The position numbers were made by a program, and so were the translations under genes. Of a stretch of 64,000 bases of DNA, positions 11,242 to 29,950 are shown one piece after another. Origin of the DNA: Candidatus Woesearchaeota archaeon (GTDB lineage Archaea > Nanobdellota > Nanobdellia > Woesearchaeales > ARS49); NCBI GenBank assembly GCA_017609645.1, contig JAFCDQ010000003.1:148846-212845 (forward strand), read 5' to 3'. The notes under the pieces are model-generated. The model was given only the letters and a program-made list of their open reading frames with translations, searched no databases and had not been told where the DNA came from. Numbering within the stretch: position 1 is the first letter of the stretch; every line of letters starts with the position of its first letter.

Positions 11242-11297
11242 ATTACCCCTTTTTTTACTTTTGCTGCCTTTTTTGAGCTTACTTTTATAGTCTTGCT

Positions 11298-11392
11298 AAC
11301 CGCGACAGGGGGTTGCCCCCTTCGGGGATGTCGCCACTCAAATAAACTTTGCAGTCAAGCGAATTGGCAGCAAAGTCTACCCCCTTGTTCCC
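11298..11392. other. GC-rich structured intergenic element (candidate small RNA, leader or attenuator) between the 297-aa membrane-protein gene and the 663-aa pilin-like gene
   Basis: The only strongly GC-rich island in the window. Outer stem GCGACA (11302-11307) pairs with TGTCGC (11329-11334) and encloses a GGGGG-UUG-CCCCC hairpin (11308-11320). That hairpin competes with a CCC-UUCG-GGG tetraloop hairpin (11318-11327). A second 7-bp stem ACTTTGC/GCAAAGT (11346-11352 / 11370-11376) has a 17-nt loop. I found no tRNA cloverleaf. Confidence 0.35.
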
Positions 11393-12286: not shown

Positions 12287-14811
12287 ATTAATGTACCATC
12301 TTCTGCATCTTCTGATTGTAAGTTATTTGCTGCCAGATTTCTTGAATCCATTGTGCTTGCCGGTCCTGCTCCTGCAAATGGCACACAATATTCACTTTTT
12401 GCACCTGGGAAATCTGCATCAGTCCATTGCATAGCTGCTGGAAGAAGTCCTCCTGTAATTGAACCAATTCCACCTAATATTGTTCTTGCCCATAAGTCTT
12501 CATAATCTTGAACAAATTCATCTATTTTTTCTTTAAACACTAAACAAATTTGATTATAATCTGTTGTGCTGTATTTGATAAAGTGTCTTGTTGCGCCTTG
12601 TCCTGGTTTGAGATATTTCCAGTCAGAGAACCATCTTGCTCGTCTTTCAGGGCCTCTGAATTCTACATTCACGTGCAAGTCTCTGTCTAATGGATTATTT
12701 ACTCTCATTTGTGCATTGTAAAGCCACATAGTGATTACTTCCATTTTCTTTATGTCGAGTTTTGGATCTGTGAAATCTACTTTTACACCGTCAATAAATG
12801 TCTGTTCTCCAAATAAATCTACTAATTCTTGTCTTGTTAATCCTTTGAATTCTATTGAGTCTGATCTCTCACCCACAAGTAAGGCAGCTCCCATTGGTGC
12901 TGCAGTGTCAGGCCCTTTTGTTAGCATGTAATTGCTTGGGCTTGAACTGATAAATCCTTCACATATATGTGATGTCCAGCATTCTTTTAATCCACCTATC
13001 ACACAGAATTTATCTTGAATCTCCTGCTTTCTCTTTGCAGCTTCTTGTAAATAATCAGAATCAAATATTAATGCGCTTAAGTATGCAAATCCCTTATATT
13101 GATTGAATGAATGTGTTAATACTCCTAGAAATCTCCACGTTCCCATTGCACTTATCTTTTTGCCTACAGAAACTGGCAAAGTTAAGTATATTGTTATCAT
13201 TTTTTGTTTGGCTTTTTCTAGCATTTTTTTCATTGCTGGAGTTAATCCTTTTTTTGCCAATAATGCATCATAAAGTTCATCAAATGTTAATGCTTTTCCT
13301 GTTGTTTTTGCTTTTGCTAATAAAGCATCTAATTCAGTATTCAATTTTTTTATAGACTCTCGTGATAATCCTTGCTCTTTTGCTGCATCTTCTAAGACTT
13401 TTTTCGCTTCCTCAAAAAGAGCAGTTGCAATTGCTAAATCTTCATCTGCTGTTGCTGAATCAAATCTTGCTATGTCTTCATTTTCCTCTGCTATTTCTAA
13501 CTTTACTTTATCTTGATCAAGCAATTTTTTTGCTTCTTCAATTGTATCAAGAGTTCGTTCTGCATCTGCTTTCATAACTTCTAATTTTGCTTTGTATTCA
13601 TTTTCCTTTGCTTGCTCTAGTTTTGTTTCTGCTTCATAAAAAGCTTGTTTTGCTTTTTGATATTCTTCTCCTGGTTTTGCTGTTGTTGTTGCTTCTTGTG
13701 CTTTGTCAAATTCAGTTAATGCCTTGGTATATGCAGTTACTGCAGTTTCATACGCTTTATCTGCTTCTATGCTTGCTAATGTATTTTGGTACAGTATTTG
13801 TGAATTTTGATATTTTGCTTCTGCATCTCTATATTCTTCTAGTACATAGTTATATACCTGCTCTGCTGATTCACTATATCGTTTTGCTTCATTTAGTTCT
13901 AACAGTTTTTTCCCTCTATCCATCTCTGCATTTTCTTTATCTTGTGTCGTTGCGTCTTCTATCACTTCCCATGCCAAAAGATCGTTGCTAACTTTTAGAT
14001 AGTCTTCGCCGATTTGTTCTACGGCTAAATCTATAAAATTTCCATCGTTATCAAGTGTATAAGACTTAAATGTGTCTTTGTCTTGCATTACATTAAAGAT
14101 TGTGTTCCATTTTCCTGCAATAAACACTTCTTCAGTACTTCCAATTTTGTTGCCTTGATAATATTGGTTTTTTATTTTTCTTTTTAATTGCCCTGTTTTT
14201 TTGTCAATTACTAACTCAACTTTTGAAACTTGATATCCTAAGTTTGCTTTTTTGTCTGCTTCTGATAATTCTTTATGCAGTTTACTTGCCTTGTCTAGAA
14301 CATATTCTTCTACTGTTCTTCTTAATTCACCATTAGCACTTAATTTGTTTTCAGTTCTTATTGTTGTTTTGTATTCTTTTAATCCTCTGCTCCATTCTTG
14401 TGTGCTTTTGCCCCAGTAATTTATGCTTCCATCTGCTTCAACTCTAAAAGAATCTGCTTTTTTGATATCTTCATATATATTTGAAGTTAGATATTTGTTT
14501 TGGACATATCCTTCAGCTTGTAAGTCTTTAGCACTTACAACGACATCTTTGATTTTGAGTTCTCCTTTTATTAAAGGAATAATTCTGTTATTCTTTGAAG
14601 AAACATAGTAGTCTGCACTACCTGGAGTTTGTTTCATTTTATCTGTCACTGTTTCTTTTGCAGGTTTAGGCGTGATTCCTATTTTATTATCTTCAATCAA
14701 CTTATTTACAGCTCCTTTTTCTGGAGCTTTAGTATCTGCTGCATAAGCTATAAAGCTACTTAAGAAAATCATGATTATCATTATTCCTATAAATCTTCTA
14801 GAATGGTTCAT
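12283..14811 (-). CDS. Large secreted protein (about 840 aa) with a central coiled-coil region of about 190 aa
   Basis: The track ORF extends to 14895. The in-frame Met at 14811 gives a signal peptide (MNHSRRFIGIMIIMIFLSSFIAYAA) and cuts the overlap with the upstream gene to 14 nt. The central segment is A/E/K-rich and heptad-like. Confidence 0.65.
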   Translation of the reverse strand: MNHSRRFIGIMIIMIFLSSFIAYAADTKAPEKGAVNKLIEDNKIGITPKPAKETVTDKMKQTPGSADYYVSSKNNRIIPLIKGELKIKDVVVSAKDLQAEGYVQNKYLTSNIYEDIKKADSFRVEADGSINYWGKSTQEWSRGLKEYKTTIRTENKLSANGELRRTVEEYVLDKASKLHKELSEADKKANLGYQVSKVELVIDKKTGQLKRKIKNQYYQGNKIGSTEEVFIAGKWNTIFNVMQDKDTFKSYTLDNDGNFIDLAVEQIGEDYLKVSNDLLAWEVIEDATTQDKENAEMDRGKKLLELNEAKRYSESAEQVYNYVLEEYRDAEAKYQNSQILYQNTLASIEADKAYETAVTAYTKALTEFDKAQEATTTAKPGEEYQKAKQAFYEAETKLEQAKENEYKAKLEVMKADAERTLDTIEEAKKLLDQDKVKLEIAEENEDIARFDSATADEDLAIATALFEEAKKVLEDAAKEQGLSRESIKKLNTELDALLAKAKTTGKALTFDELYDALLAKKGLTPAMKKMLEKAKQKMITIYLTLPVSVGKKISAMGTWRFLGVLTHSFNQYKGFAYLSALIFDSDYLQEAAKRKQEIQDKFCVIGGLKECWTSHICEGFISSSPSNYMLTKGPDTAAPMGAALLVGERSDSIEFKGLTRQELVDLFGEQTFIDGVKVDFTDPKLDIKKMEVITMWLYNAQMRVNNPLDRDLHVNVEFRGPERRARWFSDWKYLKPGQGATRHFIKYSTTDYNQICLVFKEKIDEFVQDYEDLWARTILGGIGSITGGLLPAAMQWTDADFPGAKSEYCVPFAGAGPASTMDSRNLAANNLQSEDAEDGTLI

Positions 14812-17800
14812 ATTCTGGTTCTCCTCCGTTTTCTCCAGACGCTGTTGTTTTATCATATTCTTCTGCCCATTCTTCCATTTCACCGCACCATTCATTTGTT
14901 ACCATTCCCATTTCATTTTGTCTGTTTGTCATTGCAGCAATACTTGCCCATGCTTCTCCTACTTCTGCAGCTACCCTATACAATGAGCATGCTGTATGAA
15001 TTTGTGCTGGTTTTGTTTCACAAGTCAAGTCACACCAGGTTCCAAAGAATGTTGTAACTATTGTCCATGGATTTGCTAGCATCTCACCTAGCATTTGACT
15101 GATTCCTTCAAAGAATTGTGAGAATGGTATTATGTCAAATAAGGGTCCGCCCCATACATATGCGCAGTTCATGTAATGATTTGTATCTTTGCAATAACTT
15201 ATTGGAACTCCTGTTTCTTTCCAGTCTTTTTCTAAGCAGGTTGCATATTTGCATTCTATTTGTGCTATTTTATTGATGTTTCTGATAATTCCTGGCAAAC
15301 AAAGACATGCCGTGCTTAAGTAAATATTATCTTTTATATTTGTATACATTCTCATGTTTCTTTCGCCTTCTCCGAGATTTCGCATGTTTCCTTGCATCAT
15401 TGCCCAGCCTGCTGTTAAGCTGCCACCTTGATCCATTATCCAGTCTTCAAATGCAGTGCACCATGGAGCTCCTCCTCCAACTAGATTTTCAATTCCCCAT
15501 TGGTCTTTTCCTCCGCTTGACTGACAATTTACTACAGCGCAGGCTTTGTCTAAGATTGTGTATAATGGAACTCCTAGTAATTTTTCTTCTTCAGGTATTA
15601 CTATTTTTTTGAATGAGGATTGTTTTCCTCCATATGCTCCGTCTATTTTTTCTTCTATTTCACATATTGGAGCTCTTGTGAGATAGATTGATTGGGATAT
15701 TGCAGGTCCAAAGACAGGAATGGCGCTTGTTGAGTCTTCCACGTTTCCTATTACTGCAACTAGTGCTGCTCCTGTTGATATTATGCTTGTTATGATTCCT
15801 TTCCATTCACATACTTCTTCTGCTATGTTAACTATTTCATTCATTGTTTCTAAAAGATCTGATTTAAGCACTCTTGCAGTATCCACAGCTTCTTTGATTG
15901 TTTTTTCTCTTCGTTCATAAATATCTCCAAGAGGCAAATCATAAAATTCTAAAAGAATGTCTACATCTTCTTCTTGAGGTGTTGTGTATATTGTTTGTTC
16001 TCTTTTTGAGTAGATTGTTAATGGACATGATAAGCTTAAATTATCTAGATAATAATCTCTTGCAGGAAGTTGTATCATAAAGTAGGGATTTGTGCTTCCT
16101 GGTGCTGTGTTTATTGTGCTTATATCGTCAATAAAGTTTGTTGTATTTCCAATACAATCATTTATTGATGTAGGTCCGATGATGCTTACTGTTTCTGCGC
16201 TTGAGCTTGTGCTTAAATCAACTTCACATACTACTCTTTGAGGTAGTTGTGATGTTGTTTTTCTGTCTATTGGCTGCGGCCTGCATGTTACATCACTTGT
16301 CCAGTATTTTCTTGCAGTGTCAACATCAAGTTCATATATTGTCATGTTGTATTCTGTTTCTGTTGTGTCATCAAATATGTCTGTGAATATGAAATTTATT
16401 GTTGCTTCTGCTGGTCCGCTTATGTCAACTACACTTTCAAACAAACATTCATCTAATCCTGTTATGCTGCTTAAGCTGCATTCAACAGCGTCTGAATCAC
16501 TTTCACCGCCTATTGCACTAAAGTCAGCAAAAGCATTTTCAAAGTTTTTGCTTTCTACAACAAATTGGACTGTGTCTCCTCTAACTGCTTCTCCTCCTAC
16601 ACCTTCTGGTCCTGGAATTACTATATAGTCTATTACTTTTGGTTTTAATGGTCCTTCGCTTTGATAAAATATTTCAAATTCTTGTCCAGAGTCTATTTTG
16701 TTTCCTAAATCATCTTGCGTGTCTGAGGATAATTCAAAATCATATATTCCTGAATTTGTTGTTAAGAAATTTGGATGTATGTTCCATTTGCAGTCCCATT
16801 TGTCAGCTGCAGTATTCTCGCACAAATCTGCTTGTAATTTTTTATCTGCAGATCTTCCTGTTAGATCATAAATGTTAAGATATGCTTTTCCTAGGTTCAT
16901 TCCTACTCCTGGATCACCGTCAGTATCTTTTTCTGAGAATATAATTGTGAAATAAGAATTATAAGCTGCTATTGGGTTTCCGTCTCCATCTACTGGCCCT
17001 TTTCCAATCTGAACAACAACAGGTGATTTATCATCTGCTTCTATATCAAAATCAAGTGTTCCTTGGCCTTGATTTCCTATGTTGTCTGTTGCTCTTACAA
17101 GTATTGTTCCAGAACTTTCTTCATCAACTTCCAGACCAGTCCAGTAATAAAAATTAGGAATTTGTTTATTTGAATAAGGAACTAATTGCACATTGTCATT
17201 AAATGGAGTTAGTTTTGCTTTTACTGTTGCATCTTCTATTCCGCTTAAATCAGTGATTTCTGCTCTGACACTTACTTGCTCGCTTCTTCCTGGCAGGACA
17301 TGTGTTATTTGTGCTCCTTCTGCATTTGTTAATGCTACTTCTATTGTTGGAGCTCCTTCATCTATGTAAAAATCATCACAAGCAGTATCTTCTCCGTCTA
17401 AGAAATCTCTAACAGTTGCGCATGCTCTTAGTTCATTTTCATCTCCATCATATATATAATCAAATCCTTCTGTTATTTCGCATTCTCCGGCCTCGCCTGT
17501 TATTGTTCCTACTTCTTCCATGTTAACATAGAATATGATTTCTTTTATTCCTGAGCATTCTGCTGATGCAGTTGTTGTGCCGTAATCTTTTGCCGTTACA
17601 GCAAAATTTACAGGGCCTGTTGTCATTTCTGGTTCTACATTAAAGCTTATTATTTCTGGGTCTGTATCATCTATGATTATTGTTTCTTCTAATGTTTCTC
17701 TTAAGATTGTATCTTGGTCATGAAGTGTTACTTTAAAGTCTATTTTTTCTTGTCCAATAAGATCTAATTCATCAGTATACGTGCAGGTGTAATAATCATC

Positions 17801-18055
17801 TGTTCCTTTTTGGCAAGTATCAAATGGCGCAAACACATTGCCTATCCAGAAGTTGACTCTTGATGGAAGTATGTTTTCATTTAACAGCATTGCTTTTGCT
17901 TTTATTGTCAAGGTATCTTTTGATCTTGCAAAGCCGTTTGCTTCATCTTCTCCGCTGTATCTGACCAGCTGCAAGTCAGATGTTTCTGCAATTGATATTG
18001 GAAGCAGAACTATCAGGATGATCATCATTATTGATATTTGTTTTTTTGAGTTCAT
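14798..18055 (-). CDS. Giant secreted protein (1085 aa) with acidic DxDxDG-like calcium-binding-type motifs and a Cys-rich C-terminal domain
   Basis: Signal peptide MNSKKQISIMMIILIVLLPISIAETS. Motifs DTDGDPGVG, PVDGDGNPI and DDTDPE are present. Its start overlaps the stop of the 711-aa pilin-like gene by 4 nt. Confidence 0.75.
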   Translation of the reverse strand: MNSKKQISIMMIILIVLLPISIAETSDLQLVRYSGEDEANGFARSKDTLTIKAKAMLLNENILPSRVNFWIGNVFAPFDTCQKGTDDYYTCTYTDELDLIGQEKIDFKVTLHDQDTILRETLEETIIIDDTDPEIISFNVEPEMTTGPVNFAVTAKDYGTTTASAECSGIKEIIFYVNMEEVGTITGEAGECEITEGFDYIYDGDENELRACATVRDFLDGEDTACDDFYIDEGAPTIEVALTNAEGAQITHVLPGRSEQVSVRAEITDLSGIEDATVKAKLTPFNDNVQLVPYSNKQIPNFYYWTGLEVDEESSGTILVRATDNIGNQGQGTLDFDIEADDKSPVVVQIGKGPVDGDGNPIAAYNSYFTIIFSEKDTDGDPGVGMNLGKAYLNIYDLTGRSADKKLQADLCENTAADKWDCKWNIHPNFLTTNSGIYDFELSSDTQDDLGNKIDSGQEFEIFYQSEGPLKPKVIDYIVIPGPEGVGGEAVRGDTVQFVVESKNFENAFADFSAIGGESDSDAVECSLSSITGLDECLFESVVDISGPAEATINFIFTDIFDDTTETEYNMTIYELDVDTARKYWTSDVTCRPQPIDRKTTSQLPQRVVCEVDLSTSSSAETVSIIGPTSINDCIGNTTNFIDDISTINTAPGSTNPYFMIQLPARDYYLDNLSLSCPLTIYSKREQTIYTTPQEEDVDILLEFYDLPLGDIYERREKTIKEAVDTARVLKSDLLETMNEIVNIAEEVCEWKGIITSIISTGAALVAVIGNVEDSTSAIPVFGPAISQSIYLTRAPICEIEEKIDGAYGGKQSSFKKIVIPEEEKLLGVPLYTILDKACAVVNCQSSGGKDQWGIENLVGGGAPWCTAFEDWIMDQGGSLTAGWAMMQGNMRNLGEGERNMRMYTNIKDNIYLSTACLCLPGIIRNINKIAQIECKYATCLEKDWKETGVPISYCKDTNHYMNCAYVWGGPLFDIIPFSQFFEGISQMLGEMLANPWTIVTTFFGTWCDLTCETKPAQIHTACSLYRVAAEVGEAWASIAAMTNRQNEMGMVTNEWCGEMEEWAEEYDKTTASGENGGEPEYEPF

Positions 18056-20187
18056 CTTAATACTGGTTTTAATAATGGCGCTTTAGCGATTGATTCATCT
18101 TTTATTTTGGTTATTTGGTCTAAATCTTCTATAAATCTTTGATCTTGAGGTACTTTGTCTATTGCAAGTGAAAAATATGTAAGCAGTAATTCTTCAGAAT
18201 CATATAGTTTATCAGGTGTGACTGTGAAGTCTATCTCCATCATAGTTGTTGGAAATGGATTTTCTGCATTAAATATCATGTCTTCTGGAGGTAGGTCATA
18301 CGATCTTCGTTTAGTTATAGGAATAAGTCCAAATATTTTTTCTGGTTCTATATATCTTGTGTCTTTTGGTATTACTATGTTTTTTGTTAAAAAGCCTGTT
18401 ATGGTGATTTTGTAGTTTCCTGGGATTAATGTTATTGTGTTTTCTTTTCCTCCTGATAAATCTGTTATTGCTGCAAAATCATCTTCAAACTGGCCTGGTT
18501 CTTTTGTAATCATAACCATCAATTCTTCTTCTTTATCTACTGGATGAAACTCGGTTGTATCTAGTTTCCATTTTCTTACTCCTTCTTTTTCATACAAATA
18601 TTTTCTGGCATTTACTTTGAGTTCTTTTTCTGGATACATTGTTATTGCAAGTTTTCCTTCTTTATCTCCTGTTGTTAATGGAGCATATATTGTCATGTAT
18701 CCTTGTCTTTTGATTTCTAATAATCCGTTCAAGCATCTTGGGAATTTAGAATTAAATATTCCTTGTGCTGTTGTTCCTAGCGCACATGCTGTGTCTCCAC
18801 AAGTGTAGATTATTGATGCATCATCTATGAATTCTTTTGTTGCATAATCTTTCAACTCGATATTTATTTCTCCGCTTGTTCTTTGGTTTGCTTTGCAGAA
18901 TAGGTTAGAGTCAAGATTTTTTAATGCTGCTGCCAGTTTTGTGTTTGATGTGAATGGATTATTATTTCTTAGGTTTGCTTCTAAGAAGAATTTAAAGCTG
19001 TATCCTTTGCCGCCTAGTGCATTTGGATTTGTTATCTCAACTAATACAGGTATGCTTATGTCATATGCAAAATTGTATTTTTGTATTCCAAATATGAAGA
19101 AGCTTTCTGATAATAATGAATTGTCAGGCCTGCATAATTCTCCGTCACAGTTTAAGTCTATGTAGGGTTTCCACCAGTCAAGATAATAAAATCTGACTTC
19201 TAAATCAGGATGAGGCGTGTCCATTGGTATTAAGAACTGTCTGTTGTACATTAGTTCATATGCTTCTGCATCTCTCACACCAGGTGGAGAAGGAACATAG
19301 TTGAAGTTTCTTGTTCCGCTTAATTGTAATAATGGAATATAGCTTGTGAGCATTTGAGTGATTTTCTTTTGTACTTTACTTTTTAACCAAAAGGTTTCTT
19401 TGCCTGTTTCAAATGTCATGTCAGATACAGGAGGCAGTGCATTTTTGTCAAGCTCAGAGAATGAATAAACCAGTTCTTTTATTGCATTTTCCAAGAAGGT
19501 GTATTCTATTTCTATGTTTGTTATGTCTGTTGCTAAATCATATATTTCTTTTAGGTTTACATTCACTGTTGCTGCAAAGTTAGCTAAGTCTTGTGTTGTT
19601 TTGTCTTTTGTTGCTTCTAACTCCCAATCTAATGAAATTAGAATGTCATTATCGCGGATGATTAATTCCACGTCAGGTCTTGATTTTTCTTCAACAACAT
19701 AGCCTTGTTCTCTTAATCCTGCAAAATTGTTGACGCATGCTGCAATGTTTTCTTCTACATAATCTGTTAATTGTTCTTCTATGTTTATTTTTCTTCCTGA
19801 GTATAGTTCAGGTCTTTTTGTTTCAAATGCACATTTGTCCTGGCATTTGTTTGGACTTTGCATATACCACCAATATGGTGATACAGGACCTTTCCCTCCT
19901 AATGATACTGCATCTGCTTCTGTTGGCGCATAAGGATTTTGTGCATAGTCAGGCAGGATATATCCTCCTTGCGAGCCTAATAAGTCAAGTCCATCTATTG
20001 TTGTTTTCTTGATGCAGAGCAGCACATAACTTGTTACAGGATCTGCTTCTGCGATTGGCACTACAGGAGTTATTGCTTTTCTTTCTATTGGTTTTTCCGC
20101 AACCTGAACAAAATAGATGACTAAAGCTATTGTGATTAATAGAATTATTCCTATTATAATGAACAATGTTACTTGTCCTTTTCTCAT
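18052..20187 (-). CDS. Large (711 aa) protein with a class III (type IV prepilin-like) signal peptide; paralog of 9250..11241
   Basis: N-terminus MRKGQVTLFIIIGIILLITIALVIYFV. A Shine-Dalgarno-like AGAGGAAAC precedes the ATG. It shares the N-terminal domain with the 663-aa paralog. Confidence 0.7.
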   Translation of the reverse strand: MRKGQVTLFIIIGIILLITIALVIYFVQVAEKPIERKAITPVVPIAEADPVTSYVLLCIKKTTIDGLDLLGSQGGYILPDYAQNPYAPTEADAVSLGGKGPVSPYWWYMQSPNKCQDKCAFETKRPELYSGRKINIEEQLTDYVEENIAACVNNFAGLREQGYVVEEKSRPDVELIIRDNDILISLDWELEATKDKTTQDLANFAATVNVNLKEIYDLATDITNIEIEYTFLENAIKELVYSFSELDKNALPPVSDMTFETGKETFWLKSKVQKKITQMLTSYIPLLQLSGTRNFNYVPSPPGVRDAEAYELMYNRQFLIPMDTPHPDLEVRFYYLDWWKPYIDLNCDGELCRPDNSLLSESFFIFGIQKYNFAYDISIPVLVEITNPNALGGKGYSFKFFLEANLRNNNPFTSNTKLAAALKNLDSNLFCKANQRTSGEINIELKDYATKEFIDDASIIYTCGDTACALGTTAQGIFNSKFPRCLNGLLEIKRQGYMTIYAPLTTGDKEGKLAITMYPEKELKVNARKYLYEKEGVRKWKLDTTEFHPVDKEEELMVMITKEPGQFEDDFAAITDLSGGKENTITLIPGNYKITITGFLTKNIVIPKDTRYIEPEKIFGLIPITKRRSYDLPPEDMIFNAENPFPTTMMEIDFTVTPDKLYDSEELLLTYFSLAIDKVPQDQRFIEDLDQITKIKDESIAKAPLLKPVLR

Positions 20188-20207
20188 ATAGTTTCCTCTT
20201 TTTTTAG

Positions 20208-21122
20208 TCAGCTGACTTTCAACGTTATCGGAATTTTTGTCAGTTTTCCTAAATCAGATGCTATCACAGTTATGATTTTATCTCCTGTGACTCCTGCTTT
20301 TGGTATGATTATCATTTGATTTCTTTCAACTCTTATGTCTATGCCATCCTCTGTGGTGGATAAAAATACTAATTCATCACCTTCTGGATCTTTGAATTGT
20401 TTTGAAAGGTCTATTATTGTTTTTCCTTTAACTGCAAAGTCTTTTGATTCTCCTATCCATTCTGGAGGCTGGTTCTCTGTTCTTTCGATATGGTAAATTA
20501 ATTCATTTACTTCTAGCCTTCCATTTATTACTTCAACAAATAATTTAGCTACAACTCCTTCAAAATCATTTAATGTACAAGTGTCTAAGCATGATTTTGT
20601 GAATTTTCCTTCATCATCTAATGCAACTTGTTCAGTATCAAACACCAAGACTAATTGCTCTTTATGTTCTAAGAATACTTTTGCTGATTCTCCTTCAAAT
20701 TTTCCAGATATAGCAAAGGATAATGGTACTTGTTTCAACATACCTGTTGAGACTGTTGTGTTTTCAAATACTAAAGTTACTGGTTGTGATATTTCATCTT
20801 GAAATGTTGTTAATCCTACAATCCCTGGATTTAATGCAACAATTATGCTAAAGACTATTATCAGCACTCCTGCGACTATGATGTTTAATGGCATTTTGGT
20901 CGTGCCTTTTTGCACTTCTTTTATTCTGTTGAATACTTTTGTTATTTGATCATATGCTAGTTCTCTTTGAAATTCATCCATGTTTGTTTTCATTAATTTA
21001 GAATAAATATCTAGAAGCAGGTAATATTGTTTTCTGGCAGAGTCTACTCTGCTTGCATCCAAGTGTTGCTGGGCTTTATAGTAGCTTTCTACGAAATCTT
21101 TGACTAGTTGACTTTGTTCCAT
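20208..21122 (-). CDS. Single-pass (type II) membrane protein, hypothetical: about 75-aa cytoplasmic N-terminal domain plus an extracellular beta-rich domain
   Basis: 304 aa with one hydrophobic segment (LNIIVAGVLIIVFSIIVAL) after a charged N-terminal region. First gene of the locus on the minus strand. Confidence 0.55.
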   Translation of the reverse strand: MEQSQLVKDFVESYYKAQQHLDASRVDSARKQYYLLLDIYSKLMKTNMDEFQRELAYDQITKVFNRIKEVQKGTTKMPLNIIVAGVLIIVFSIIVALNPGIVGLTTFQDEISQPVTLVFENTTVSTGMLKQVPLSFAISGKFEGESAKVFLEHKEQLVLVFDTEQVALDDEGKFTKSCLDTCTLNDFEGVVAKLFVEVINGRLEVNELIYHIERTENQPPEWIGESKDFAVKGKTIIDLSKQFKDPEGDELVFLSTTEDGIDIRVERNQMIIIPKAGVTGDKIITVIASDLGKLTKIPITLKVS

Positions 21123-24691: not shown

Positions 24692-26302
24692 TTAATTTCC
24701 TTTCACTAAATAATTTCCATCTTTGTTTATCACAGTATTTACTGTTTTAATATCAAAAGGATAATATTTTACTATTTTAAGATTCATTTTTGCGGATACT
24801 TTAGTAGCACCGATTGTTGTTCTGCTTCCTGCATATCTTCTGACAAAATTAAAGAAGTTTCCTTGATCTTCTTTTCCTCCTTCAGCTGTGCTGCAAGAGT
24901 CTAAAAAGATAACTGCATCTTTTGCTAACATAGAAAGATATGTGCCAATATCTGTATCAGTTATATCTAATCTTTGATTTTCTTCACGTCCGCCATACAT
25001 TATTCCTTTTTTTGATCCATGTCCTGAAAGAATAAGTAATTTTGTGTCTTTATTTTTCATAGCTTCTATTGTTTCATATACTTGTTTTTCATTTTCTGCG
25101 ATTGCGAGTTTAATATCATAATGTTTCTTTATTGAATTAAAAAATTTAACCATCGTGTTCATTTCAAAAACTTTCATTGAAGAATGTGTTTTTCCTTCAC
25201 TATAAGGCAAGATCCAAACTGCATTTGGTTTTTCTGTATCTTTAAAATTTAATATTTCATCTGTTGTTAATCCAAGTTGTGCAAATCTATAAATTCTCAT
25301 TCCATCATAACCTTTTTTAGCTAATTTTTCTGCATATCCAAACAAATCATAATCTTCTTTTTCTAAAACTTTATCAAAACCATAGAATTTTTCAACTTTT
25401 CTAAATTTGGATATTTGTTCTGAATTTGTAAAAACAGGATTTCCTTTATTGTCTTTAAATTCTAATAATTTCTTTGCAAATTCATAAGTACCTTTTGCTC
25501 TTTTAAATTCGGTTAATTCACTCTCATCAACAAATATTTGTTCTCCTTTTTCATTTTCTAAAGTTAACATTTTTTCTGCATATTCTTTAGTTCCTCCAAC
25601 TGAAAAATAATTTGAAATATAATGATCAAACAAAAGATTTCCTTTTTTTGTTTTTATTTTCATTAATTCAAGAAGTTTTTCATGTGAAATGTTTGCTTTA
25701 TAAAGTTTAATTATGTCTCCAGACAGATCGAGAGAAAACAACTTTGTTCCATCTGATTTTTTTGATTTGGCAAATCGCATTACATAATCTACAGGAACTT
25801 TTGCCTTTGATAATTCGCATATTTCAGAGTTAAAAAATGTAAAATATGAACGATTTCCCTTTTTATCTCTCACTTTTTTAAGTTTAATGGCATAATCAAC
25901 AGGAACTTTAGCTTTATATAAATCATAAATAAAATCTTCAAAAATAAATAATCTATCTTCCTCTTCATCTCTCGCATTTAATAATTTTTTAGCATAAGAA
26001 ACATCCATATCTCCTGGAAATTTGTATCCGTCAATAATTATATCCTTTAATTTTGGTTTTTCCTTTTCTACTTTACCTTCCAATGTCTGCGGTTGACTCT
26101 GTGTTTGAGAAATAGTTTGTATTTGTGGTTTTGTCTGTACTTTCTTTTTTCTTTTTGTTTGCACTTCTTCTTTTGTTTGAGAATGATAAACTGGCTCTAT
26201 AGGGATAATTTCAGTTGTATTACTACAACCTGTCAAAACACTCCAAGCTAATACAGCTGTTGCAAATATTCCACCAACTAATCTTCCTAACTCCATAATC
26301 AC
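24692..26302 (-). CDS. Lipoprotein with six or more internal repeats of about 35 aa and a C-terminal CHAT/caspase-like (clan CD) domain
   Basis: Lipobox LTGC at the end of the signal peptide; repeats of the form LYKAKVPVDYAIKLKKVRDKKGN..F. The C-terminus has KLLILSGHGS...(about 40 aa)...VIFLDSCSTAEGG, the His/Cys dyad spacing typical of CHAT/caspase-fold enzymes. Confidence 0.6.
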   Translation of the reverse strand: MIMELGRLVGGIFATAVLAWSVLTGCSNTTEIIPIEPVYHSQTKEEVQTKRKKKVQTKPQIQTISQTQSQPQTLEGKVEKEKPKLKDIIIDGYKFPGDMDVSYAKKLLNARDEEEDRLFIFEDFIYDLYKAKVPVDYAIKLKKVRDKKGNRSYFTFFNSEICELSKAKVPVDYVMRFAKSKKSDGTKLFSLDLSGDIIKLYKANISHEKLLELMKIKTKKGNLLFDHYISNYFSVGGTKEYAEKMLTLENEKGEQIFVDESELTEFKRAKGTYEFAKKLLEFKDNKGNPVFTNSEQISKFRKVEKFYGFDKVLEKEDYDLFGYAEKLAKKGYDGMRIYRFAQLGLTTDEILNFKDTEKPNAVWILPYSEGKTHSSMKVFEMNTMVKFFNSIKKHYDIKLAIAENEKQVYETIEAMKNKDTKLLILSGHGSKKGIMYGGREENQRLDITDTDIGTYLSMLAKDAVIFLDSCSTAEGGKEDQGNFFNFVRRYAGSRTTIGATKVSAKMNLKIVKYYPFDIKTVNTVINKDGNYLVKGN

Positions 26303-26374
26303 TATAAAGTAGCTATTTTATATATAAATCTTTCTCTCCCAAAGCTTTAAAAAACAATAAAACATCAATAACTC

Positions 26375-26923
26375 ATGCTTCCAAAAATAAAAGAGGACAT
26401 AATCTCAGTATTAAAAAAAGCAATTCCTGCTTTGAAAAAAGAGGATTTTACTGAATTAAGTGATTTAAGTAATAGAACTATTCATGATGCAAGTATTTTT
26501 CAAGATGCTGATTCAATCTCTTGTGCCGTTCTTATGTATTCTTTGTCAAAGTTTTGCCAGCAATGCAAAGAAAAAGATATCTCTCTTCCAAATTTTGCCG
26601 CACAATTAGAAAAAGCTTTAGATCTCTTAAAAAAAGATAATATTAAACTTTACGAAAATAAAATTAAAGAGATTTTCAAAGTTATGAAAAAATATGATGA
26701 AAAAGTTAATATTTATTTTGAAGAAGCAATCAAGCGTGCAAAAATCAAGAAAGCAAGCTGGATGCATGAACACGGCATTAGTATTGCAAGAACAGCTGAA
26801 CTTCTAGGAGTGAGCCAGTGGGATTTAAGAAATTATGTTGGAGTAACTAAAGTTCCTGACAAAAACTTAGGCGGTTTAACAGCAAAAAAGAGATTAGAAG
26901 TAGCGAGGGACTTATTCAAATGA
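26375..26923 (+). CDS. UPF0175 (COG2886)-type antitoxin-like protein with an N-terminal extension of about 110 aa
   Basis: The C-terminal ISIARTAELLGVSQWDLRNYVGVTKVP matches the UPF0175 helix-turn-helix signature. Its stop overlaps the start of the downstream PIN gene (ATGA). Confidence 0.5.
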   Translation: MLPKIKEDIISVLKKAIPALKKEDFTELSDLSNRTIHDASIFQDADSISCAVLMYSLSKFCQQCKEKDISLPNFAAQLEKALDLLKKDNIKLYENKIKEIFKVMKKYDEKVNIYFEEAIKRAKIKKASWMHEHGISIARTAELLGVSQWDLRNYVGVTKVPDKNLGGLTAKKRLEVARDLFK

Positions 26924-27609
26924 AAACTTTAGTTTTTGATACAGGACCAATAATCTCTTTAGCACTAACTAATTTGCTTTGGCTTTTGCCTGAATTAAAG
27001 AAAAAATTCAAAGGAAGATTCTTAATCCCTCTTTCTGTAAAAAAAGAACTTGTTGACAAACCTTTTCACGGGAAAAAATTCAAATTAGAAGCTATTCAAT
27101 TAATGCAGTTGATTGAAAATAAAGTCTTGGAAGTTATTGATGAGGATAAAGTTTCTAAAAGAGCTAAAGAATTAATTGAAGAAGCAAATAAGATTTTCAA
27201 AGGTTTTCATCATAATATTAACATAATTCAAGAAGGGGAGATGGAAGCCGTTGCTATGGCAGAATTATATAATGCAGATGGCATTGTTATTGATGAAAGA
27301 ATTACTAGAACTTTAATTGAACATCCTCCTGGTTTGCAAAAACACATGGAAAGAAAACTGCACACAAGACTTTCTGTAAACAAACAATTATTAGAAAAAC
27401 TCAGTGATCAATTAGATGATGTTTATATCATTAGAAGCACAGAACTTGCTGCAATTGCTTTTGAAAAAGGATTATTAAACAAATATATTATTCCAAGAAA
27501 AGTCACTAAAAGAGATGTGTTAGACGCCACATTATGGGCATTAAAGCTTAATGGCTGTTCTATCAGAAGCGACGAAATAAGAAAAATCAGTCAAGAAGTT
27601 GTTAAATGA
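26920..27609 (+). CDS. PIN-domain protein (COG2405-like putative toxin or nuclease)
   Basis: N-terminal LVFDTGPIISLALTNLLWLL carries the first PIN Asp; acidic residues recur in QEGEMEAVAMAELYNADGIVIDE. 229 aa, translationally coupled to the upstream UPF0175-like gene. Confidence 0.6.
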   Translation: MKTLVFDTGPIISLALTNLLWLLPELKKKFKGRFLIPLSVKKELVDKPFHGKKFKLEAIQLMQLIENKVLEVIDEDKVSKRAKELIEEANKIFKGFHHNINIIQEGEMEAVAMAELYNADGIVIDERITRTLIEHPPGLQKHMERKLHTRLSVNKQLLEKLSDQLDDVYIIRSTELAAIAFEKGLLNKYIIPRKVTKRDVLDATLWALKLNGCSIRSDEIRKISQEVVK

Positions 27610-27643
27610 TTATTTCCAATATTTTTTTATGAAATGAATTGAT

Positions 27644-29950
27644 TTATTTGGAATTAGAATCTTTTTTCTCTATTTTTTTTAAAGTTCTCTCTTTTCCAAG
27701 TTGAGCTAACATATCTTCAGATCCTATTTTTAGAGCTGTTTCATAAGAAGTAAGTGCTTCGTCTAATCTATCTACTCTTTGTAGAACATCTCCTCTAAGA
27801 ATATAAGGCAATGCATCATCAGGATATAACTCTATTGCTCTTTCATAAAACTTAAGTGCTTCTTCCAATTTTCCTGATCTTTCTAAAATACTTCCTTCCT
27901 TACAATAAGGAATTCTTGTTAGAATTTTGGTTTTGTAATCTTCATAATCATCACATTCAGTATTTTCATTTTCTTCTTTTTGTTGTTCTAGTTTTCTTTC
28001 AACTTTTCTTTTAAAAACTTCATAAAATTCTTTTTTCCTTGGCTTTAATTCAATTGCTTTATCATAATATTTATTTGCTTCTTCTAGCTTACCCAATTCT
28101 TCTAACGCCTCTCCTTTACTACAATAATAATGTGCTTTTTCTGGATCTAGGTCTATTGCTAAATCATACTGTTCAATGGCGTCTACTAGTTTACCTAATT
28201 TCCTCAATGCGTCTCCTTTACTACAATAATAATGTGCTTTTTCTGGATCTAGGTCTATTGCTAAATCATACTGTTCAATTGCATCTTTGAATTCTCCTAA
28301 TTCTTCTAAAGCCACTCCTTTTGTAAAATAAAAAAAAGAATCATTTGGTTCAATCTCAATTGCTTTATTATAAAATTCAATTGCTTTTTCAGGATTATCT
28401 TCTTCAATTTCTTGGCCTTTAAGCAAAAAAGAAAAAGCATCTTTTTCTCTCTCAATATTAGAACTTTCACCCCTCTTTTTGAAATCCAAATCTATTACCT
28501 CTTCAGAAACTTTTTGTTCTAATAAAGATGAGTCATCATTTTTTGTTAAAATATCTAAATTAATTAAAGCATCAATAAAATCATCTATCGTTTGATATCT
28601 ATCTTCAGGATAAAATTCTAATCCTTTTTCAATTACTTTTATTATTTTTCCATCAACTTTTGCTTTTTTCAGTGCATTGTAAATTCCCTGAGGACCTGGG
28701 CCTATATTTACTCCTAATGGTTTGCCTGTTAATAACTCATAAAATATTTTGTTTAAAGAAAAGATATCGCTTTTTTCTGTTGGTTTTTTTCCATTTAATT
28801 GTTCAGGAGACATATATAGAAGTGTCCCTTCAAATTCTTTGCTTTGCACAGTCATTATAGACTTTAATGTTTCTGGATTTGACAAAATTTTAGCAAGGCC
28901 AAAATCACAAACCTTAACTTCTAAGTCATCATTTACAAGAATGTTTTCCGGCTTTATATCTGCATGAACAACCCCTTTAGAATGCGCATAAGACAATGCA
29001 TTAGCGACTTGACTTATGATTTTTATTGTTTTTTCTTGGGTAAAATCATTTATCTTTTCTCTTAAATTTGTTGAATTCTCAAAATATTCCATCAATAAGT
29101 ATGGAAATCCCTCTCTTTGAACATGTTCAACAAGAAGTATATTCTCATGCGTTCCTAAACATTTATGCGCCTCAGCTTCTTTAAGAAGTTCGTAACTAGC
29201 ATTAGGTTTTGGGAACTTCATAGTTTTTAAGATATTAGTTTCAGTTTTGACTTTCCAAACAACACCAAAACCCCCTTCACCAATTTTCTCTTCTAAGGTA
29301 TAACCATCAATAATTTGTCCAGAGCTTAAATTTAAAGCTCTTCTTGAGCTTCTTTTAGTTTTAGAAGAAGCAATAAGTTCTATAACATTCAGTTTGCTTT
29401 CTTTTTCAACACTTTCAATATACTTCTTAGCCCAGTTTTCTATTTCTTTAGGAGCTCTCTTAGAGGTTCGTAATTCTGCTTGTAAATTTAATTTAAGTTC
29501 TTCTGTTAATTTATCAAGATTATCAAAAGAATATTTAATCCATCTCTGATTACGCAGATCGGTTGCTTTTTTTAAAGCCTCATCTAAGTCTTGTGAAATA
29601 AACAATATTGGTTTTTTTTGACCAATTAAGAAACCTGTTTCAAGCATCACATTTTCATTTATTTTTTGGCCTTCTTTTTTACTTAAACTCATATCAGAAA
29701 TTCCCATAGTGGCGTACTCTGCAGCAAGTTGGATATCTTCCCAGATAGAACCTTCCCCTAATAAACGCGTAGCACTAAGCACATTTATGCTATATTCCCC
29801 TAAATTTAAACTAGCGTCTTCAATTGCTTTTAGAATTTCTTCAAAATCCTCATTATATTCCTGAGCTACAAATATATAAGGTATTTCTAGCTGAATTTTT
29901 TCTTCTAGTTTAAGTAAATCAAAATACTTCTGTCGAACAACGTTTCCCAT
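27644..29950 (-). CDS. Multidomain signalling protein: N-terminal TIR-like / nucleoside 2-deoxyribosyltransferase-like domain, Hanks-type Ser/Thr protein kinase, C-terminal TPR repeats
   Basis: Kinase motifs GEGGFGVVWKV, HADIKPENILV and DFGLAK. The N-terminus has NENVMLETGFLIGQKKPILFI, which resembles the NDT/COG4271 TIR-like motif. The C-terminus has 34-aa TPR units (AIEQYDLAIDLDPEKAHYYCSKG...). Confidence 0.85.
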   Translation of the reverse strand: MGNVVRQKYFDLLKLEEKIQLEIPYIFVAQEYNEDFEEILKAIEDASLNLGEYSINVLSATRLLGEGSIWEDIQLAAEYATMGISDMSLSKKEGQKINENVMLETGFLIGQKKPILFISQDLDEALKKATDLRNQRWIKYSFDNLDKLTEELKLNLQAELRTSKRAPKEIENWAKKYIESVEKESKLNVIELIASSKTKRSSRRALNLSSGQIIDGYTLEEKIGEGGFGVVWKVKTETNILKTMKFPKPNASYELLKEAEAHKCLGTHENILLVEHVQREGFPYLLMEYFENSTNLREKINDFTQEKTIKIISQVANALSYAHSKGVVHADIKPENILVNDDLEVKVCDFGLAKILSNPETLKSIMTVQSKEFEGTLLYMSPEQLNGKKPTEKSDIFSLNKIFYELLTGKPLGVNIGPGPQGIYNALKKAKVDGKIIKVIEKGLEFYPEDRYQTIDDFIDALINLDILTKNDDSSLLEQKVSEEVIDLDFKKRGESSNIEREKDAFSFLLKGQEIEEDNPEKAIEFYNKAIEIEPNDSFFYFTKGVALEELGEFKDAIEQYDLAIDLDPEKAHYYCSKGDALRKLGKLVDAIEQYDLAIDLDPEKAHYYCSKGEALEELGKLEEANKYYDKAIELKPRKKEFYEVFKRKVERKLEQQKEENENTECDDYEDYKTKILTRIPYCKEGSILERSGKLEEALKFYERAIELYPDDALPYILRGDVLQRVDRLDEALTSYETALKIGSEDMLAQLGKERTLKKIEKKDSNSK
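28101..28269 (-). repeat. Identical 67-nt segment repeated at 102-nt (one TPR unit) spacing inside the kinase gene
   Basis: 28101-28167 equals 28203-28269 exactly; both encode TPR units, which suggests recent unit duplication or gene conversion. Confidence 0.8.

What the first reader, a model, noticed from the sequence alone, without database searches (positions are those of the whole stretch)
26375..27609. UPF0175-PIN (COG2886/COG2405-type) toxin-antitoxin-like pair with an unusually extended antitoxin
The two genes overlap by ATGA. The downstream protein has an N-terminal PIN domain (FDTGPIISLA, acidic residues in EGEMEAV...GIVIDE) plus a C-terminal extension of about 90 aa. The upstream protein carries a UPF0175-type HTH at its C-terminus but has about 110 extra N-terminal residues. 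Canonical versions are about 75 aa and about 150 aa, so both partners are enlarged, suggesting additional sensing or targeting functions.
Basis: partly seen in the sequence, partly recalled or inferred. Interest (0 to 1): 0.5.

Follow-up and report, generated by a model that had tools for sequence, protein, structure and literature searches.

The report
Conserved archaeal HTH–PIN nuclease gene pair
Two overlapping genes encode a PIN-type nuclease and a DNA-binding-type partner related to a predicted toxin–antitoxin family, but in this group of tiny archaea the pair is a fixed, single-copy, vertically inherited and often fused module, so it looks more like a domesticated regulated nuclease than a selfish toxin–antitoxin element.

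Summary
ORF A (26375–26923, 182 aa) and ORF B (26920–27609, 229 aa) overlap by ATGA.

- **A** is a helical N-domain of about 110 aa, then an HTH, then a short C-terminal helix. Relatives match Pfam UPF0175 just below threshold.

The "enlargement" is not a peculiarity of this locus. It is the fixed architecture of a compact family (609 clusters at 50% identity). Named members are mostly Woesearchaeota/Nanoarchaeota, with a few labelled Aenigmarchaeota or Hodarchaeales.

- A sits directly upstream of B in 78 of 85 loci, and 55 of those have the same 4-nt overlap.
- Neighbouring genes vary and are housekeeping-type.
- Base composition is native.
- No relatives were found on viral contigs, plasmids or phages.
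- A and B are fused into one 400–443-aa protein in 36 proteins, in 16 separate clades.
- Five B orthologues lack an adjacent A.

Best reading: a toxin–antitoxin-related, vertically retained HTH–PIN nuclease complex in which A binds and controls or targets B. A classical toxin–antitoxin or defence role remains a live rival. It is a new variant of a known kind and moderately interesting.

The parts
26340..26354 (+). BRE/TATA-like promoter element (caaagctttaaaaaa) centred about 25 nt upstream of A's ATG. It implies a leaderless or very short-leader transcript for the A–B operon.
   Evidence: Read directly from the sequence. An equivalent element (…AAAnCTTTATATAA…) sits 20–35 nt before the ATG of gene A in most of 74 related loci. 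Its function as a promoter is inferred from the archaeal promoter consensus, not shown.
26375..26923 (+). Gene A, 182 aa: helical-bundle plus HTH partner protein, a UPF0175-like 'antitoxin-type' subunit.
   Evidence: ORF. 164 homologues of about 181 aa. Alignment A2 has a mean column identity of 66%. AF2 model pLDDT 81.
26375..26701 (+). A residues 1–109: N-terminal all-helical domain (helices 3–21, 25–42, 45–66, 74–86, 90–107) with the conserved SNHTIHDASIFQ patch. S32, Q43, Y55 and K59 are conserved even in divergent fusions. No known relative.
26702..26857 (+). A residues 110–161: UPF0175-like region containing the helix-turn-helix (helices 137–144 and 148–155; invariant H133, G134, S136, A141, L144, G145, W149, L151 and Y154).
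   Evidence: Relatives match PF03683 at residues 110–161, profile positions 8–60 of 75, at 24–26.6 bits, below the 27.9-bit cut-off. The window's own copy gives only HTH_7 at E = 0.034. Model.
26882..26917 (+). A residues 170–181: C-terminal amphipathic helix after a low-confidence linker, with invariant R173, R178 and F181. It is a candidate B-contacting segment.
   Evidence: The contact role is inferred by analogy with VapB/FitA C-terminal segments (established knowledge); it was not tested.
26920..26923 (+). ATGA overlap of A's stop codon and B's start codon, consistent with translational coupling.
   Evidence: The same −4 spacing occurs in 55 of 78 paired loci.
26920..27609 (+). Gene B, 229 aa: PIN-domain nuclease.
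26920..27321 (+). B residues 1–134: main part of the PIN core carrying the acidic site D7, E43, E107 and D125/E126, plus invariant R130 and E134.
   Evidence: PADLOC alignment covers B 3–132 against profile positions 2–105 of 162.
27328..27414 (+). B residues 137–165: inserted helical hairpin with the near-invariant KLH motif (L147, H148).
   Evidence: Secondary structure of the model and conservation. Calling it an insertion is inferred from the order of elements.
27472..27606 (+). B residues 185–229: C-terminal helical extension with the invariant LWGxKLxGC motif (L205, W206, K209, G212; C213 at least 90% conserved).
27622..27628 (+). T7 tract in the 34-nt gap between B and the convergent kinase gene, an archaeal-type oligo-T terminator candidate.
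   Evidence: Read directly from the sequence. The bacterial hairpin-terminator scan found none. The terminator role is inferred.

Best explanation
The locus encodes a two-subunit PIN-domain nuclease module that is evolutionarily related to the predicted UPF0175–COG2405 (DUF3368/PDC-S70) toxin–antitoxin pairs. In Woesearchaeota/Nanoarchaeota-type DPANN archaea it has become a fixed, chromosomal, vertically inherited gene pair.

B is the catalytic subunit, a metal-dependent PIN endonuclease, most likely an RNase. Its acidic site is D7/E43/E107/D125-E126. It has two family-specific additions: an inserted helical hairpin and a C-terminal helical extension carrying the LWGxKLxGC motif.

A is an obligate 1:1 partner. 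It is co-translated through the ATGA overlap, or covalently fused in many lineages. It binds B and gates or targets its activity through its HTH, its C-terminal Arg-rich helix and a conserved N-terminal helical domain. It may also bind DNA at its own promoter.

Shown here: gene structure, PIN fold, conservation of the acidic residues, strict A–B linkage, recurrent fusions, and a non-mobile context.

Inferred: nuclease activity, RNA as substrate, physical A–B binding, inhibition or targeting by A, and a housekeeping or regulatory rather than addictive role.
For: - **Relationship to the known family.** PDC-S70 at E = 1.8e-10. UPF0175 is hit in 25 of 36 A relatives. The literature states that UPF0175 occurs only next to COG2405 PINs (PMC5499597).
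- **Fixed architecture.** Lengths of about 181 aa and about 229 aa hold across hundreds of homologues. There are 453 related loci among GTDB species representatives, and the 80 listed each come from a different assembly.
- **Linkage.** A is directly upstream in 78 of 85 loci, and 55 of those have the −4 overlap.
- **Obligate partnership.** 36 A–B fusion proteins have linkers of −1 to +21 residues. They fall in 16 separate clades of a B-domain tree, including one clade of five members only 35–45% identical to each other.
- **Not mobile.** Neighbours are ThrRS, ribosomal S6e, exosome subunits, RNase HII-like and HerA/Mre11-like genes, and they vary between loci. GC equals the surroundings. There are no relatives in IMG/VR, PLSDB or GenBank phages. 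The pair is single-copy in the window.
- **Co-divergence.** A and B divergence tracks that of flanking genes, with ρ up to 0.83–0.86, and identity levels are similar to several housekeeping neighbours.
- **B without A.** B occurs without an adjacent A in 5 loci. In three of them B's start overlaps the end of another gene by 4 nt.
- **Own promoter.** A conserved BRE/TATA-like element lies upstream of A.
Against: - No biochemical or genetic data exist for any member, so nuclease activity, substrate and the A–B interaction are all inferred.
- The closest sequence relatives (UPF0175–COG2405, PDC-S70) are themselves predicted TA or defence genes, so homology favours a TA-like mechanism.
- Chromosomal, vertically inherited TA systems do exist, and fused toxin–antitoxin proteins are known, so neither feature excludes a TA.
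- I could not compute the fraction of Woesearchaeota genomes that carry the pair, or genome-wide copy number. 'Near-universal' is therefore not demonstrated.
- The neighbour co-divergence correlations are weak for some families (ρ 0.1–0.2).
- The NJ tree is crude. Some short-linker fusions could be 1-nt indel artefacts at the A-rich ATGA junction.
- The five B-only loci may have A elsewhere in the genome.
Confidence: 0.5

Rival explanations
1. It is a bona fide type II toxin–antitoxin or anti-virus defence module of the UPF0175–COG2405/PDC-S70 kind. B is a growth-arresting RNase and A neutralises it by direct binding and represses the operon. The extra N-terminal domain of A acts as a sensor whose triggering, by a stress or a viral protein, releases B.
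For: - Homology to predicted TA and defence families.
- Classic TA gene layout, with the antitoxin-type gene first and a 4-nt overlap.
- A has an HTH plus a flexible linker and a C-terminal helix with invariant arginines, as in VapB/FitA-type antitoxins.
- An intact PIN acidic site.
- Fused toxin–antitoxin sensors such as CapRel-SJ46 exist (own knowledge), so fusions are compatible with this reading.
- DPANN archaea are reported to be enriched in PDC candidates (PMC12988326).
Against: - Single-copy in the window, fixed architecture, hundreds of species.
- Housekeeping rather than defence-island or mobile-element neighbours.
- Absent from viral contigs, plasmids and phages.
- Native base composition.
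- A is at least as conserved as B, with a mean column identity of 66% against 54%. Antitoxins usually evolve fast.
- Five B genes have no adjacent A.
- No conserved operator palindrome was seen upstream beyond the BRE/TATA element itself.
Confidence: 0.3
2. It is a DNA-directed nuclease and regulator linked to DNA repair. The PIN-like domain would act on DNA structures, as FEN-like members of the superfamily do, and the HTH subunit would bind DNA, in cooperation with the HerA/Mre11 cluster often found next to it.
For: HerA (DUF87)-like and Mre11-like (Metallophos) genes lie 1–3 kb downstream in 22 of 85 loci, and again next to a divergent fusion gene. B's divergence correlates best with the HerA-like neighbour (ρ 0.83). 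A carries a DNA-binding-type HTH.
Against: - The association is absent in the window itself and in about three quarters of loci, so it can be explained by inherited synteny in a subclade.
- No repair-related domain is found in A or B.
Confidence: 0.07
3. It is a housekeeping RNA-maturation PIN enzyme of an already known type, for example a protein-only RNase P of the HARP/PIN_5 type or a Nob1-like rRNA endonuclease, with A as an accessory factor.
Against: - Only 1 of 36 members touches PIN_5 (E = 0.038) or PIN_6 (E = 0.031), which is not significant.
- B has no Nob1-type zinc ribbon.
- Neither HARP nor Nob1 is known to pair with a UPF0175-type HTH partner (own knowledge).
Confidence: 0.05

Closest known systems
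UPF0175 (PF03683/COG2886) – COG2405 (PF11848/DUF3368) predicted type II toxin–antitoxin pairs (Makarova et al. 2009, PMC2701414; Matelska et al. 2017, PMC5499597)
   Same: An HTH protein of UPF0175 type is encoded immediately upstream of, and overlapping, a VapC-like PIN with the FD…GP / GE.E / DE(R) motif pattern. The group is mostly archaeal. Function has only been predicted, never tested.
   Different: - Canonical partners are about 75–100 aa and about 150–165 aa. A canonical example, 100 aa + 163 aa, sits in locus L035.
- Here A carries an extra helical domain of about 110 aa. B carries an inserted hairpin plus a C-terminal extension of about 45 aa.
- Pfam scores are below threshold.
- The exhaustive profile search returned a compact family: 609 clusters, 518 of them at E ≤ 1e-10, and all 150 listed hits are full-length family members.
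- Single-copy, non-mobile, often fused.
VapBC type II toxin–antitoxin systems (e.g. Shigella VapBC 6sd6, Rickettsia VapBC2 3zvk, M. tuberculosis VapBC26 5x3t, FitAB 2bsq)
   Different: - VapB antitoxins use AbrB, RHH or Phd DNA-binding folds and are short.
- VapBC loci are typically multi-copy and patchy (own knowledge).
- Here the partner is an HTH plus helical bundle, and the pair is conserved as one copy with frequent fusion.
- Sequence identity to VapCs is only 12–18%.
PADLOC PDC-S70 (single-gene PIN 'putative defence candidate', predominantly archaeal; PMC12988326)
   Same: B residues 1–132 match three PDC-S70 HMMs at E = 1.8e-10 to 5.7e-8. The group is enriched in archaea.
   Different: - The PDC-S70 models are about 125–162 positions long and only about two thirds is covered.
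- PDC-S70 is defined as a single-gene system found embedded in defence islands and is unvalidated.
- This family is two-gene or fused and is not in defence-island contexts.
Fused toxin–antitoxin proteins (e.g. CapRel-SJ46, EzeT; own knowledge, not checked here)
   Same: Antitoxin-type and toxin-type domains sit in one polypeptide, as in the 36 A–B fusions.
   Different: The toxin folds differ (RelA/SpoT-like and zeta kinase, against PIN). Those are sporadic defence or TA genes, whereas here fusion and split forms interchange within one conserved orthologous family.
HARP (PIN_5) protein-only RNase P, Aquifex Aq_880 (7f3e)
   Different: There is no significant PIN_5 sequence match, the structural score is lower than to VapCs, and HARP has no HTH partner.

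Membership tests
PIN domain-like superfamily (VapC-like group) | Three-layer α/β/α fold with a parallel central sheet | tested here: met
PIN domain-like superfamily (VapC-like group) | Three to four conserved acidic residues after β1, in α3, and at or after β3 and β4 | tested here: met
   D7, E43, D125 and E126 are invariant and E107 is at least 90% conserved in 36 sequences. D, E and D-E are invariant in 20 divergent fusions.
PIN domain-like superfamily (VapC-like group) | Metal-dependent nuclease activity | not testable with these tools
   Needs biochemistry.
COG2405 / DUF3368 (PF11848) / PADLOC PDC-S70 | Significant match to the family's sequence model | tested here: inconclusive
   - PADLOC PDC-S70 HMMs: E = 1.8e-10, 1.2e-9 and 5.7e-8, but covering only profile positions 2–105 of 162.
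- Precomputed tags list PF11848 for almost all relatives.
- My own hmmscan against the 2025 Pfam copy gave no PF11848 hit for the window protein at E ≤ 10, or for 36 relatives at E ≤ 1.
- hhalign to one canonical 163-aa PIN: E = 7e-4, probability 26%.
COG2405 / DUF3368 (PF11848) / PADLOC PDC-S70 | Single-domain protein of about 150–165 aa | tested here: not met
   229 aa, constant across the family, with an inserted hairpin at about 137–165 and an extension at about 185–227.
COG2405 / DUF3368 (PF11848) / PADLOC PDC-S70 | Encoded next to a UPF0175 gene | tested here: met
   A UPF0175-like A is directly upstream in 78 of 85 loci. This holds with the caveat that A's UPF0175 similarity is sub-threshold.
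UPF0175 (PF03683 / COG2886) | Score above Pfam's gathering threshold (27.9 bits) | tested here: not met
   The window's A gives no hit. The best relatives score 24.3–26.6 bits (E = 4.7e-6 to 2.5e-5) over residues 110–161. 25 of 36 relatives hit at E ≤ 1. hhalign against one canonical UPF0175 aligns only the HTH, E = 0.13.
UPF0175 (PF03683 / COG2886) | Classical helix-turn-helix motif | tested here: met
   Helices at 137–144 and 148–155 in the AF2 model. Weak HTH_7 and HTH_23 hits. Local Foldseek matches to HTH domains, for example 2x48 at probability 0.98.
UPF0175 (PF03683 / COG2886) | Small single-domain protein of about 75–100 aa | tested here: not met
   182 aa, with a conserved extra helical domain of about 110 aa.
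Type II toxin–antitoxin system (functional class) | Two adjacent co-directional genes with overlap or a short gap, DNA-binding partner first | tested here: met
Type II toxin–antitoxin system (functional class) | Toxin arrests growth, and the antitoxin neutralises it by binding and is labile | not testable with these tools
   Needs expression and rescue experiments.
Type II toxin–antitoxin system (functional class) | Mobile, patchy, often multi-copy distribution and association with mobile elements or defence islands | tested here: not met
   - One copy in the window.
- The 80 best genome loci come from 80 different assemblies.
- Housekeeping neighbours.
- Native GC.
- None on viral contigs, plasmids or phages.
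- Divergence correlates positively with flanking genes.
- Limits: genome-wide copy number and clade prevalence were not measured.
Type II toxin–antitoxin system (functional class) | Antitoxin expressed as a separate polypeptide | tested here: inconclusive
   They are separate in the window and in most loci. In 36 proteins forming 16 clades they are fused.
Type II toxin–antitoxin system (functional class) | Operator palindromes in the promoter for autoregulation | tested here: inconclusive
   Only AT-rich palindromes inherent to the BRE/TATA region were found. No conserved operator is visible across 74 upstream regions. No motif-finding software was available.
HARP / PIN_5 protein-only RNase P | Match to PIN_5 (PF08745), and HARP as the closest structure | tested here: not met

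The most novel reading that the evidence does not exclude
A toxin–antitoxin-derived HTH–PIN pair has been domesticated into a core, vertically inherited nuclease complex of Woesearchaeota-type DPANN archaea. Fused versions reach Aenigmarchaeota-labelled and Hodarchaeales (Asgard)-labelled genomes. In this reading the 'antitoxin' is not a labile antidote but a permanent specificity or regulatory subunit, with a previously undescribed helical domain. The complex would then be an uncharacterised housekeeping RNA-processing or RNA-surveillance enzyme in organisms with minimal genomes, and it would currently be at risk of being counted as a 'defence candidate' (PDC-S70) in archaeal immune censuses.
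Probability: 0.4. Interest if true: 0.6.

Novelty: new variant of a known kind. Interest (0 to 1): 0.45.

Why it matters
DPANN archaea have very small genomes in which about half of the proteins are uncharacterised. A gene pair that hundreds of their species keep in a fixed form is therefore likely to do something important.

If this family is a domesticated toxin–antitoxin-type nuclease complex, it would be a clear natural example of a 'selfish' module turned into a stable cellular component. The repeated gene fusions would give direct evidence that the two proteins work as one unit.

There is also a practical annotation consequence. The PIN subunit matches the PADLOC PDC-S70 models, so family members could be counted as antiviral defence candidates in archaeal surveys. 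That could inflate the estimated defence content of DPANN lineages.

Both the N-terminal domain of A and the C-terminal LWGxKLxGC module of B lack any recognisable relative. They are targets for structural and functional work.

Tried and rejected
- **Direct Pfam/NCBIfam scans of both window proteins.** Nothing significant. The family assignment had to come from relatives, PADLOC and structure.
- **Profile searches against PDB sequences.** Nothing for B. For A, only HTH-like noise and a designed repeat protein.
- **An HD-phosphohydrolase-like reading of A's 'H..HD…D' residues (H34, H37-D38, D108).** Rejected. The spacing is non-canonical, there are no HD-domain fold hits, and H37 is not conserved in divergent fusion members.
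- **HARP/RNase P and Nob1 readings of B.** Weaker than VapC-type matches.
- **Defence-island or mobile-element context.** Not found. PHROGs gave nothing.
- **Operator search upstream of A.** Only BRE/TATA-associated AT-rich palindromes. The bacterial promoter and terminator scan was uninformative for an archaeon.
- **hhalign of the family profiles against the one canonical UPF0175+PIN pair found in L035.** Weak: E = 7e-4 and E = 0.13.
- **Rfam and tRNA scans of the window.** Empty.
- **Literature.** No paper in the searchable library describes this extended family.
Full report
**Observation.** The two ORFs are real. A runs 26375–26923 (182 aa) and B runs 26920–27609 (229 aa), both on the + strand. 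A's TGA overlaps B's ATG as ATGA. The neighbours are threonyl-tRNA synthetase (read from the translation), ribosomal protein S6e and a Ser/Thr kinase with TPR repeats. The identical proteins are on record from a 316-kb contig, and their relatives are annotated as Candidatus Woesearchaeota or Nanoarchaeota.

**What the proteins are.** Direct Pfam and NCBIfam scans of the two window proteins give nothing significant. This shows how far the pair lies from the curated models.

*Protein B.*
- An AlphaFold2 model built on 36 homologues is confident (pLDDT 93.4).
- D7, E43, D125 and E126 are invariant and E107 is nearly so. In the model they fall just after β1, in the helix after β2, at the start of helix 105–116 and just after strand 121–123. 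These are the canonical PIN acidic positions, judged from established knowledge of VapC structures. I could not measure distances in the model.
- The window protein matches three PADLOC PDC-S70 models (E = 1.8e-10 to 5.7e-8) over residues 1–132.
- Relative to a PIN of about 150 aa, the extra material appears to be a helical hairpin at about 137–165 and a C-terminal three-helix segment at about 185–227. Both carry invariant residues (L147/H148; L205, W206, K209, G212, C213).

*Protein A.*
- The model (pLDDT 81) shows five to six helices spanning residues 3–132, an HTH at 137–155, a low-confidence linker and a terminal helix at 170–181.
- 25 of 36 relatives match Pfam UPF0175, best E = 4.7e-6. 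The match covers residues 110–161 and scores 24–27 bits, just under the 27.9-bit cut-off. The window's own subclade does not match at all.
- The N-terminal domain has no informative relative by sequence or fold.

**The family.** Both proteins belong to compact families of constant length. A has 164 hits of about 181 aa. B has 292 hits of about 229 aa.
- An exhaustive profile search of 1.84 billion cluster representatives with the B profile found only 609 clusters at E ≤ 0.001, and 518 of those at E ≤ 1e-10. All 150 listed hits are full-length family members, so the family appears well separated rather than a tail of the large PIN families.
- Among GTDB species representatives there are 453 related loci. 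The best 80 each come from a different assembly, and all are Woesearchaeota, Nanoarchaeota or unclassified-archaeon MAGs. Some carry an apparently placeholder 'Methanosarcinales' label.

**Linkage and fusion.**
- In 78 of 85 fetched loci an A homologue lies directly upstream on the same strand. In 55 of those it has the same 4-nt overlap.
- No other gene family is present in more than 22 of 85 loci.
- About 15% of the B-family cluster representatives are 400–443-aa proteins in which a complete A domain is joined to a complete B domain.
- On a neighbour-joining tree of B domains the fusions fall into 16 separate clades. One clade holds five members only 35–45% identical to each other. Fusion, or fission, has therefore happened repeatedly and persisted.
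- Some zero-linker cases could be 1-nt indel artefacts at the A-rich ATGA junction. The long-linker and deep-clade cases cannot be explained that way.
- Named fusions come from Aenigmarchaeota, Nanoarchaeia, Woesearchaeota and one Hodarchaeales (Asgard) MAG on a 133-kb contig. There the gene stands alone among ordinary cellular genes.
- Conversely, five B orthologues have no A upstream. In three of them B's start overlaps the end of a CofD-like or unknown gene by 4 nt.

**Mobility tests.**
- The pair's GC (0.29–0.31) equals its surroundings.
- There is one copy in the window.
- Neighbours elsewhere are exosome subunits, RNA polymerase subunit Rpo6 (Pfam RNA_pol_Rpb6), RNase HII-like, GTPase/OapB/OapC and HerA/Mre11-like genes.
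- No relative is found in IMG/VR viral contigs, PLSDB plasmids or GenBank phages. The last two collections contain few archaeal replicons.
- Where loci share a flanking gene, divergence of A and B correlates positively with that gene's divergence. The correlation is ρ = 0.83 for B and 0.86 for A with the HerA-like neighbour over 231 pairs, 0.3–0.8 for most others, and about 0.1–0.2 for one.
- A/B identity levels are similar to several flanking proteins.
- A is more conserved than B within the core family, at 66% against 54% mean column identity.

**Expression signals.** A BRE/TATA-like element (…AAAnCTTTATATAA…) lies 20–35 nt upstream of A's ATG in most of 74 loci. In the window it is caaagctttaaaaaa at 26340–26354. 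That implies a dedicated promoter and a leaderless or near-leaderless mRNA. A T7 tract follows B. No conserved operator palindrome stands out.

**Interpretation.** The 'enlargement' is the invariant design of an old, clade-wide family. The behaviour of that family is not what mobile addiction or defence modules show: one copy in this window, native context, no mobile carriers, high conservation of the antitoxin-type subunit, recurrent fusion, and occasional loss of adjacency.

I therefore favour a TA-related but domesticated HTH–PIN nuclease complex (confidence about 0.5). B would be an active metal-dependent nuclease, most likely an RNase. A would be its permanent binding partner that gates or targets it. 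The fusions show that the two act as a unit. Everything about activity, substrate and the direction of control is inferred.

A classical type II TA or defence role (about 0.3) is the main rival. It is favoured by homology and gene layout. It is not excluded by chromosomal fixation or by fusion, since fused TA sensors exist. Links to DNA repair (about 0.07) and a known RNA-maturation PIN type (about 0.05) are weakly supported.

**Comparison with what is known.** The closest described systems are the UPF0175–COG2405 (DUF3368) pairs predicted by Makarova et al. 2009 and classified by Matelska et al. 2017. They are described there as 'potential toxins', with UPF0175 found exclusively beside COG2405. 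PADLOC's PDC-S70 is an unvalidated, mainly archaeal, single-gene PIN defence candidate.

This family shares the PIN core motifs, the HTH type and the gene order. It fails Pfam thresholds and the size and single-domain criteria, it adds two or three conserved modules, and it differs in population behaviour. A canonical small UPF0175+PIN pair happens to lie next to a B orthologue in L035, which illustrates the contrast. I found no paper describing the extended family.

**Verdict.** This is a real feature and a new variant of a known kind. It is moderately interesting (0.45). It is worth a complex-structure prediction, a proper phylogenomic census, and toxicity and nuclease assays.

**Main limitations.**
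- No complex model was made.
- There is no denominator for clade prevalence.
- The tree is crude.
- The discrepancy between precomputed PF11848 tags and my own Pfam scan is unresolved.

Noticed in passing
window 2405–21122 (− strand): Seven consecutive minus-strand ORFs (2282, 663, 297, 870, 1085, 711 and 304 aa) have essentially no Pfam annotation. The only hits are near-threshold Ig-like ones (Big_13, Glucodextran_B) in the 2282-aa protein. This is a 19-kb block of unknown, possibly surface-associated, giant proteins.
   Followed up: partly
window 27644–29950 (− strand): A 768-aa protein has a eukaryotic-type Ser/Thr kinase domain (residues 217–415) and a long C-terminal TPR array. The N-terminal ~200 aa is unannotated. 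The gene is convergent with gene B across a 34-nt gap.
   Followed up: partly
window 24692–26302 (− strand): A 536-aa protein has no Pfam hit. It has an N-terminal hydrophobic segment ending in LTGC (lipobox-like), internal repeats of the type 'KAKVPVDYA.K…KKGN', and a C-terminal 'LILSGHG … FLDSCST' His/Cys pattern reminiscent of caspase/CHAT-like peptidases. This was read from the translation and not tested. It is transcribed divergently from gene A. An AT-rich palindromic TATA-like stretch at 26303–26328 may be its promoter.
   Followed up: no
L035 4726–5556 (− strand): A canonical small pair lies immediately downstream of a B orthologue that lacks its A partner. It consists of a 100-aa UPF0175 (30 bits, above Pfam's cut-off) and a 163-aa PIN-like protein, with the PIN gene first.
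   Followed up: partly
L001 7158–10929; L087 6008–10136; 22 of 85 loci: A HerA (DUF87)-like ATPase gene, often with an Mre11-like (Metallophos) gene, recurs 1–3 kb downstream of the A–B pair and also next to a divergent A–B fusion. This is either inherited synteny or a functional hint.
   Followed up: partly
L035, L043, L079 (about 3000–4004): In three genomes B has no A upstream. Its start instead overlaps by 4 nt the end of a CofD-family gene (L035, L043) or of an unannotated protein of about 315 aa (L079) that also precedes CofD in the other two.
   Followed up: partly
L086 (Hodarchaeales contig, gene 8001–9332): A 443-aa A–B fusion is annotated in a Candidatus Hodarchaeales (Asgard) MAG on a 133-kb contig, among SMC, MFS transporter, P-type ATPase and MarR genes. 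This is the family's only clearly non-DPANN-labelled fusion seen here. The binning was not verified.
   Followed up: partly
window 1–64000: No tRNA gene and no Rfam family reach threshold anywhere in the 64 kb.
   Followed up: yes
locus titles (e.g. L006, L008, L010): Many GTDB representative MAGs carrying Woesearchaeota-like A–B genes are titled 'uncultured Methanosarcinales archaeon isolate binchicken_*/SRP*'. This is probably placeholder or erroneous taxonomy in the records.
   Followed up: no
Precomputed annotations tag nearly every B relative with PF11848 (DUF3368). A fresh hmmscan against the 2025 Pfam copy reports no PF11848 hit for the window protein at E ≤ 10, or for 36 relatives at E ≤ 1. 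The difference between model versions or thresholds is unresolved.
   Followed up: partly
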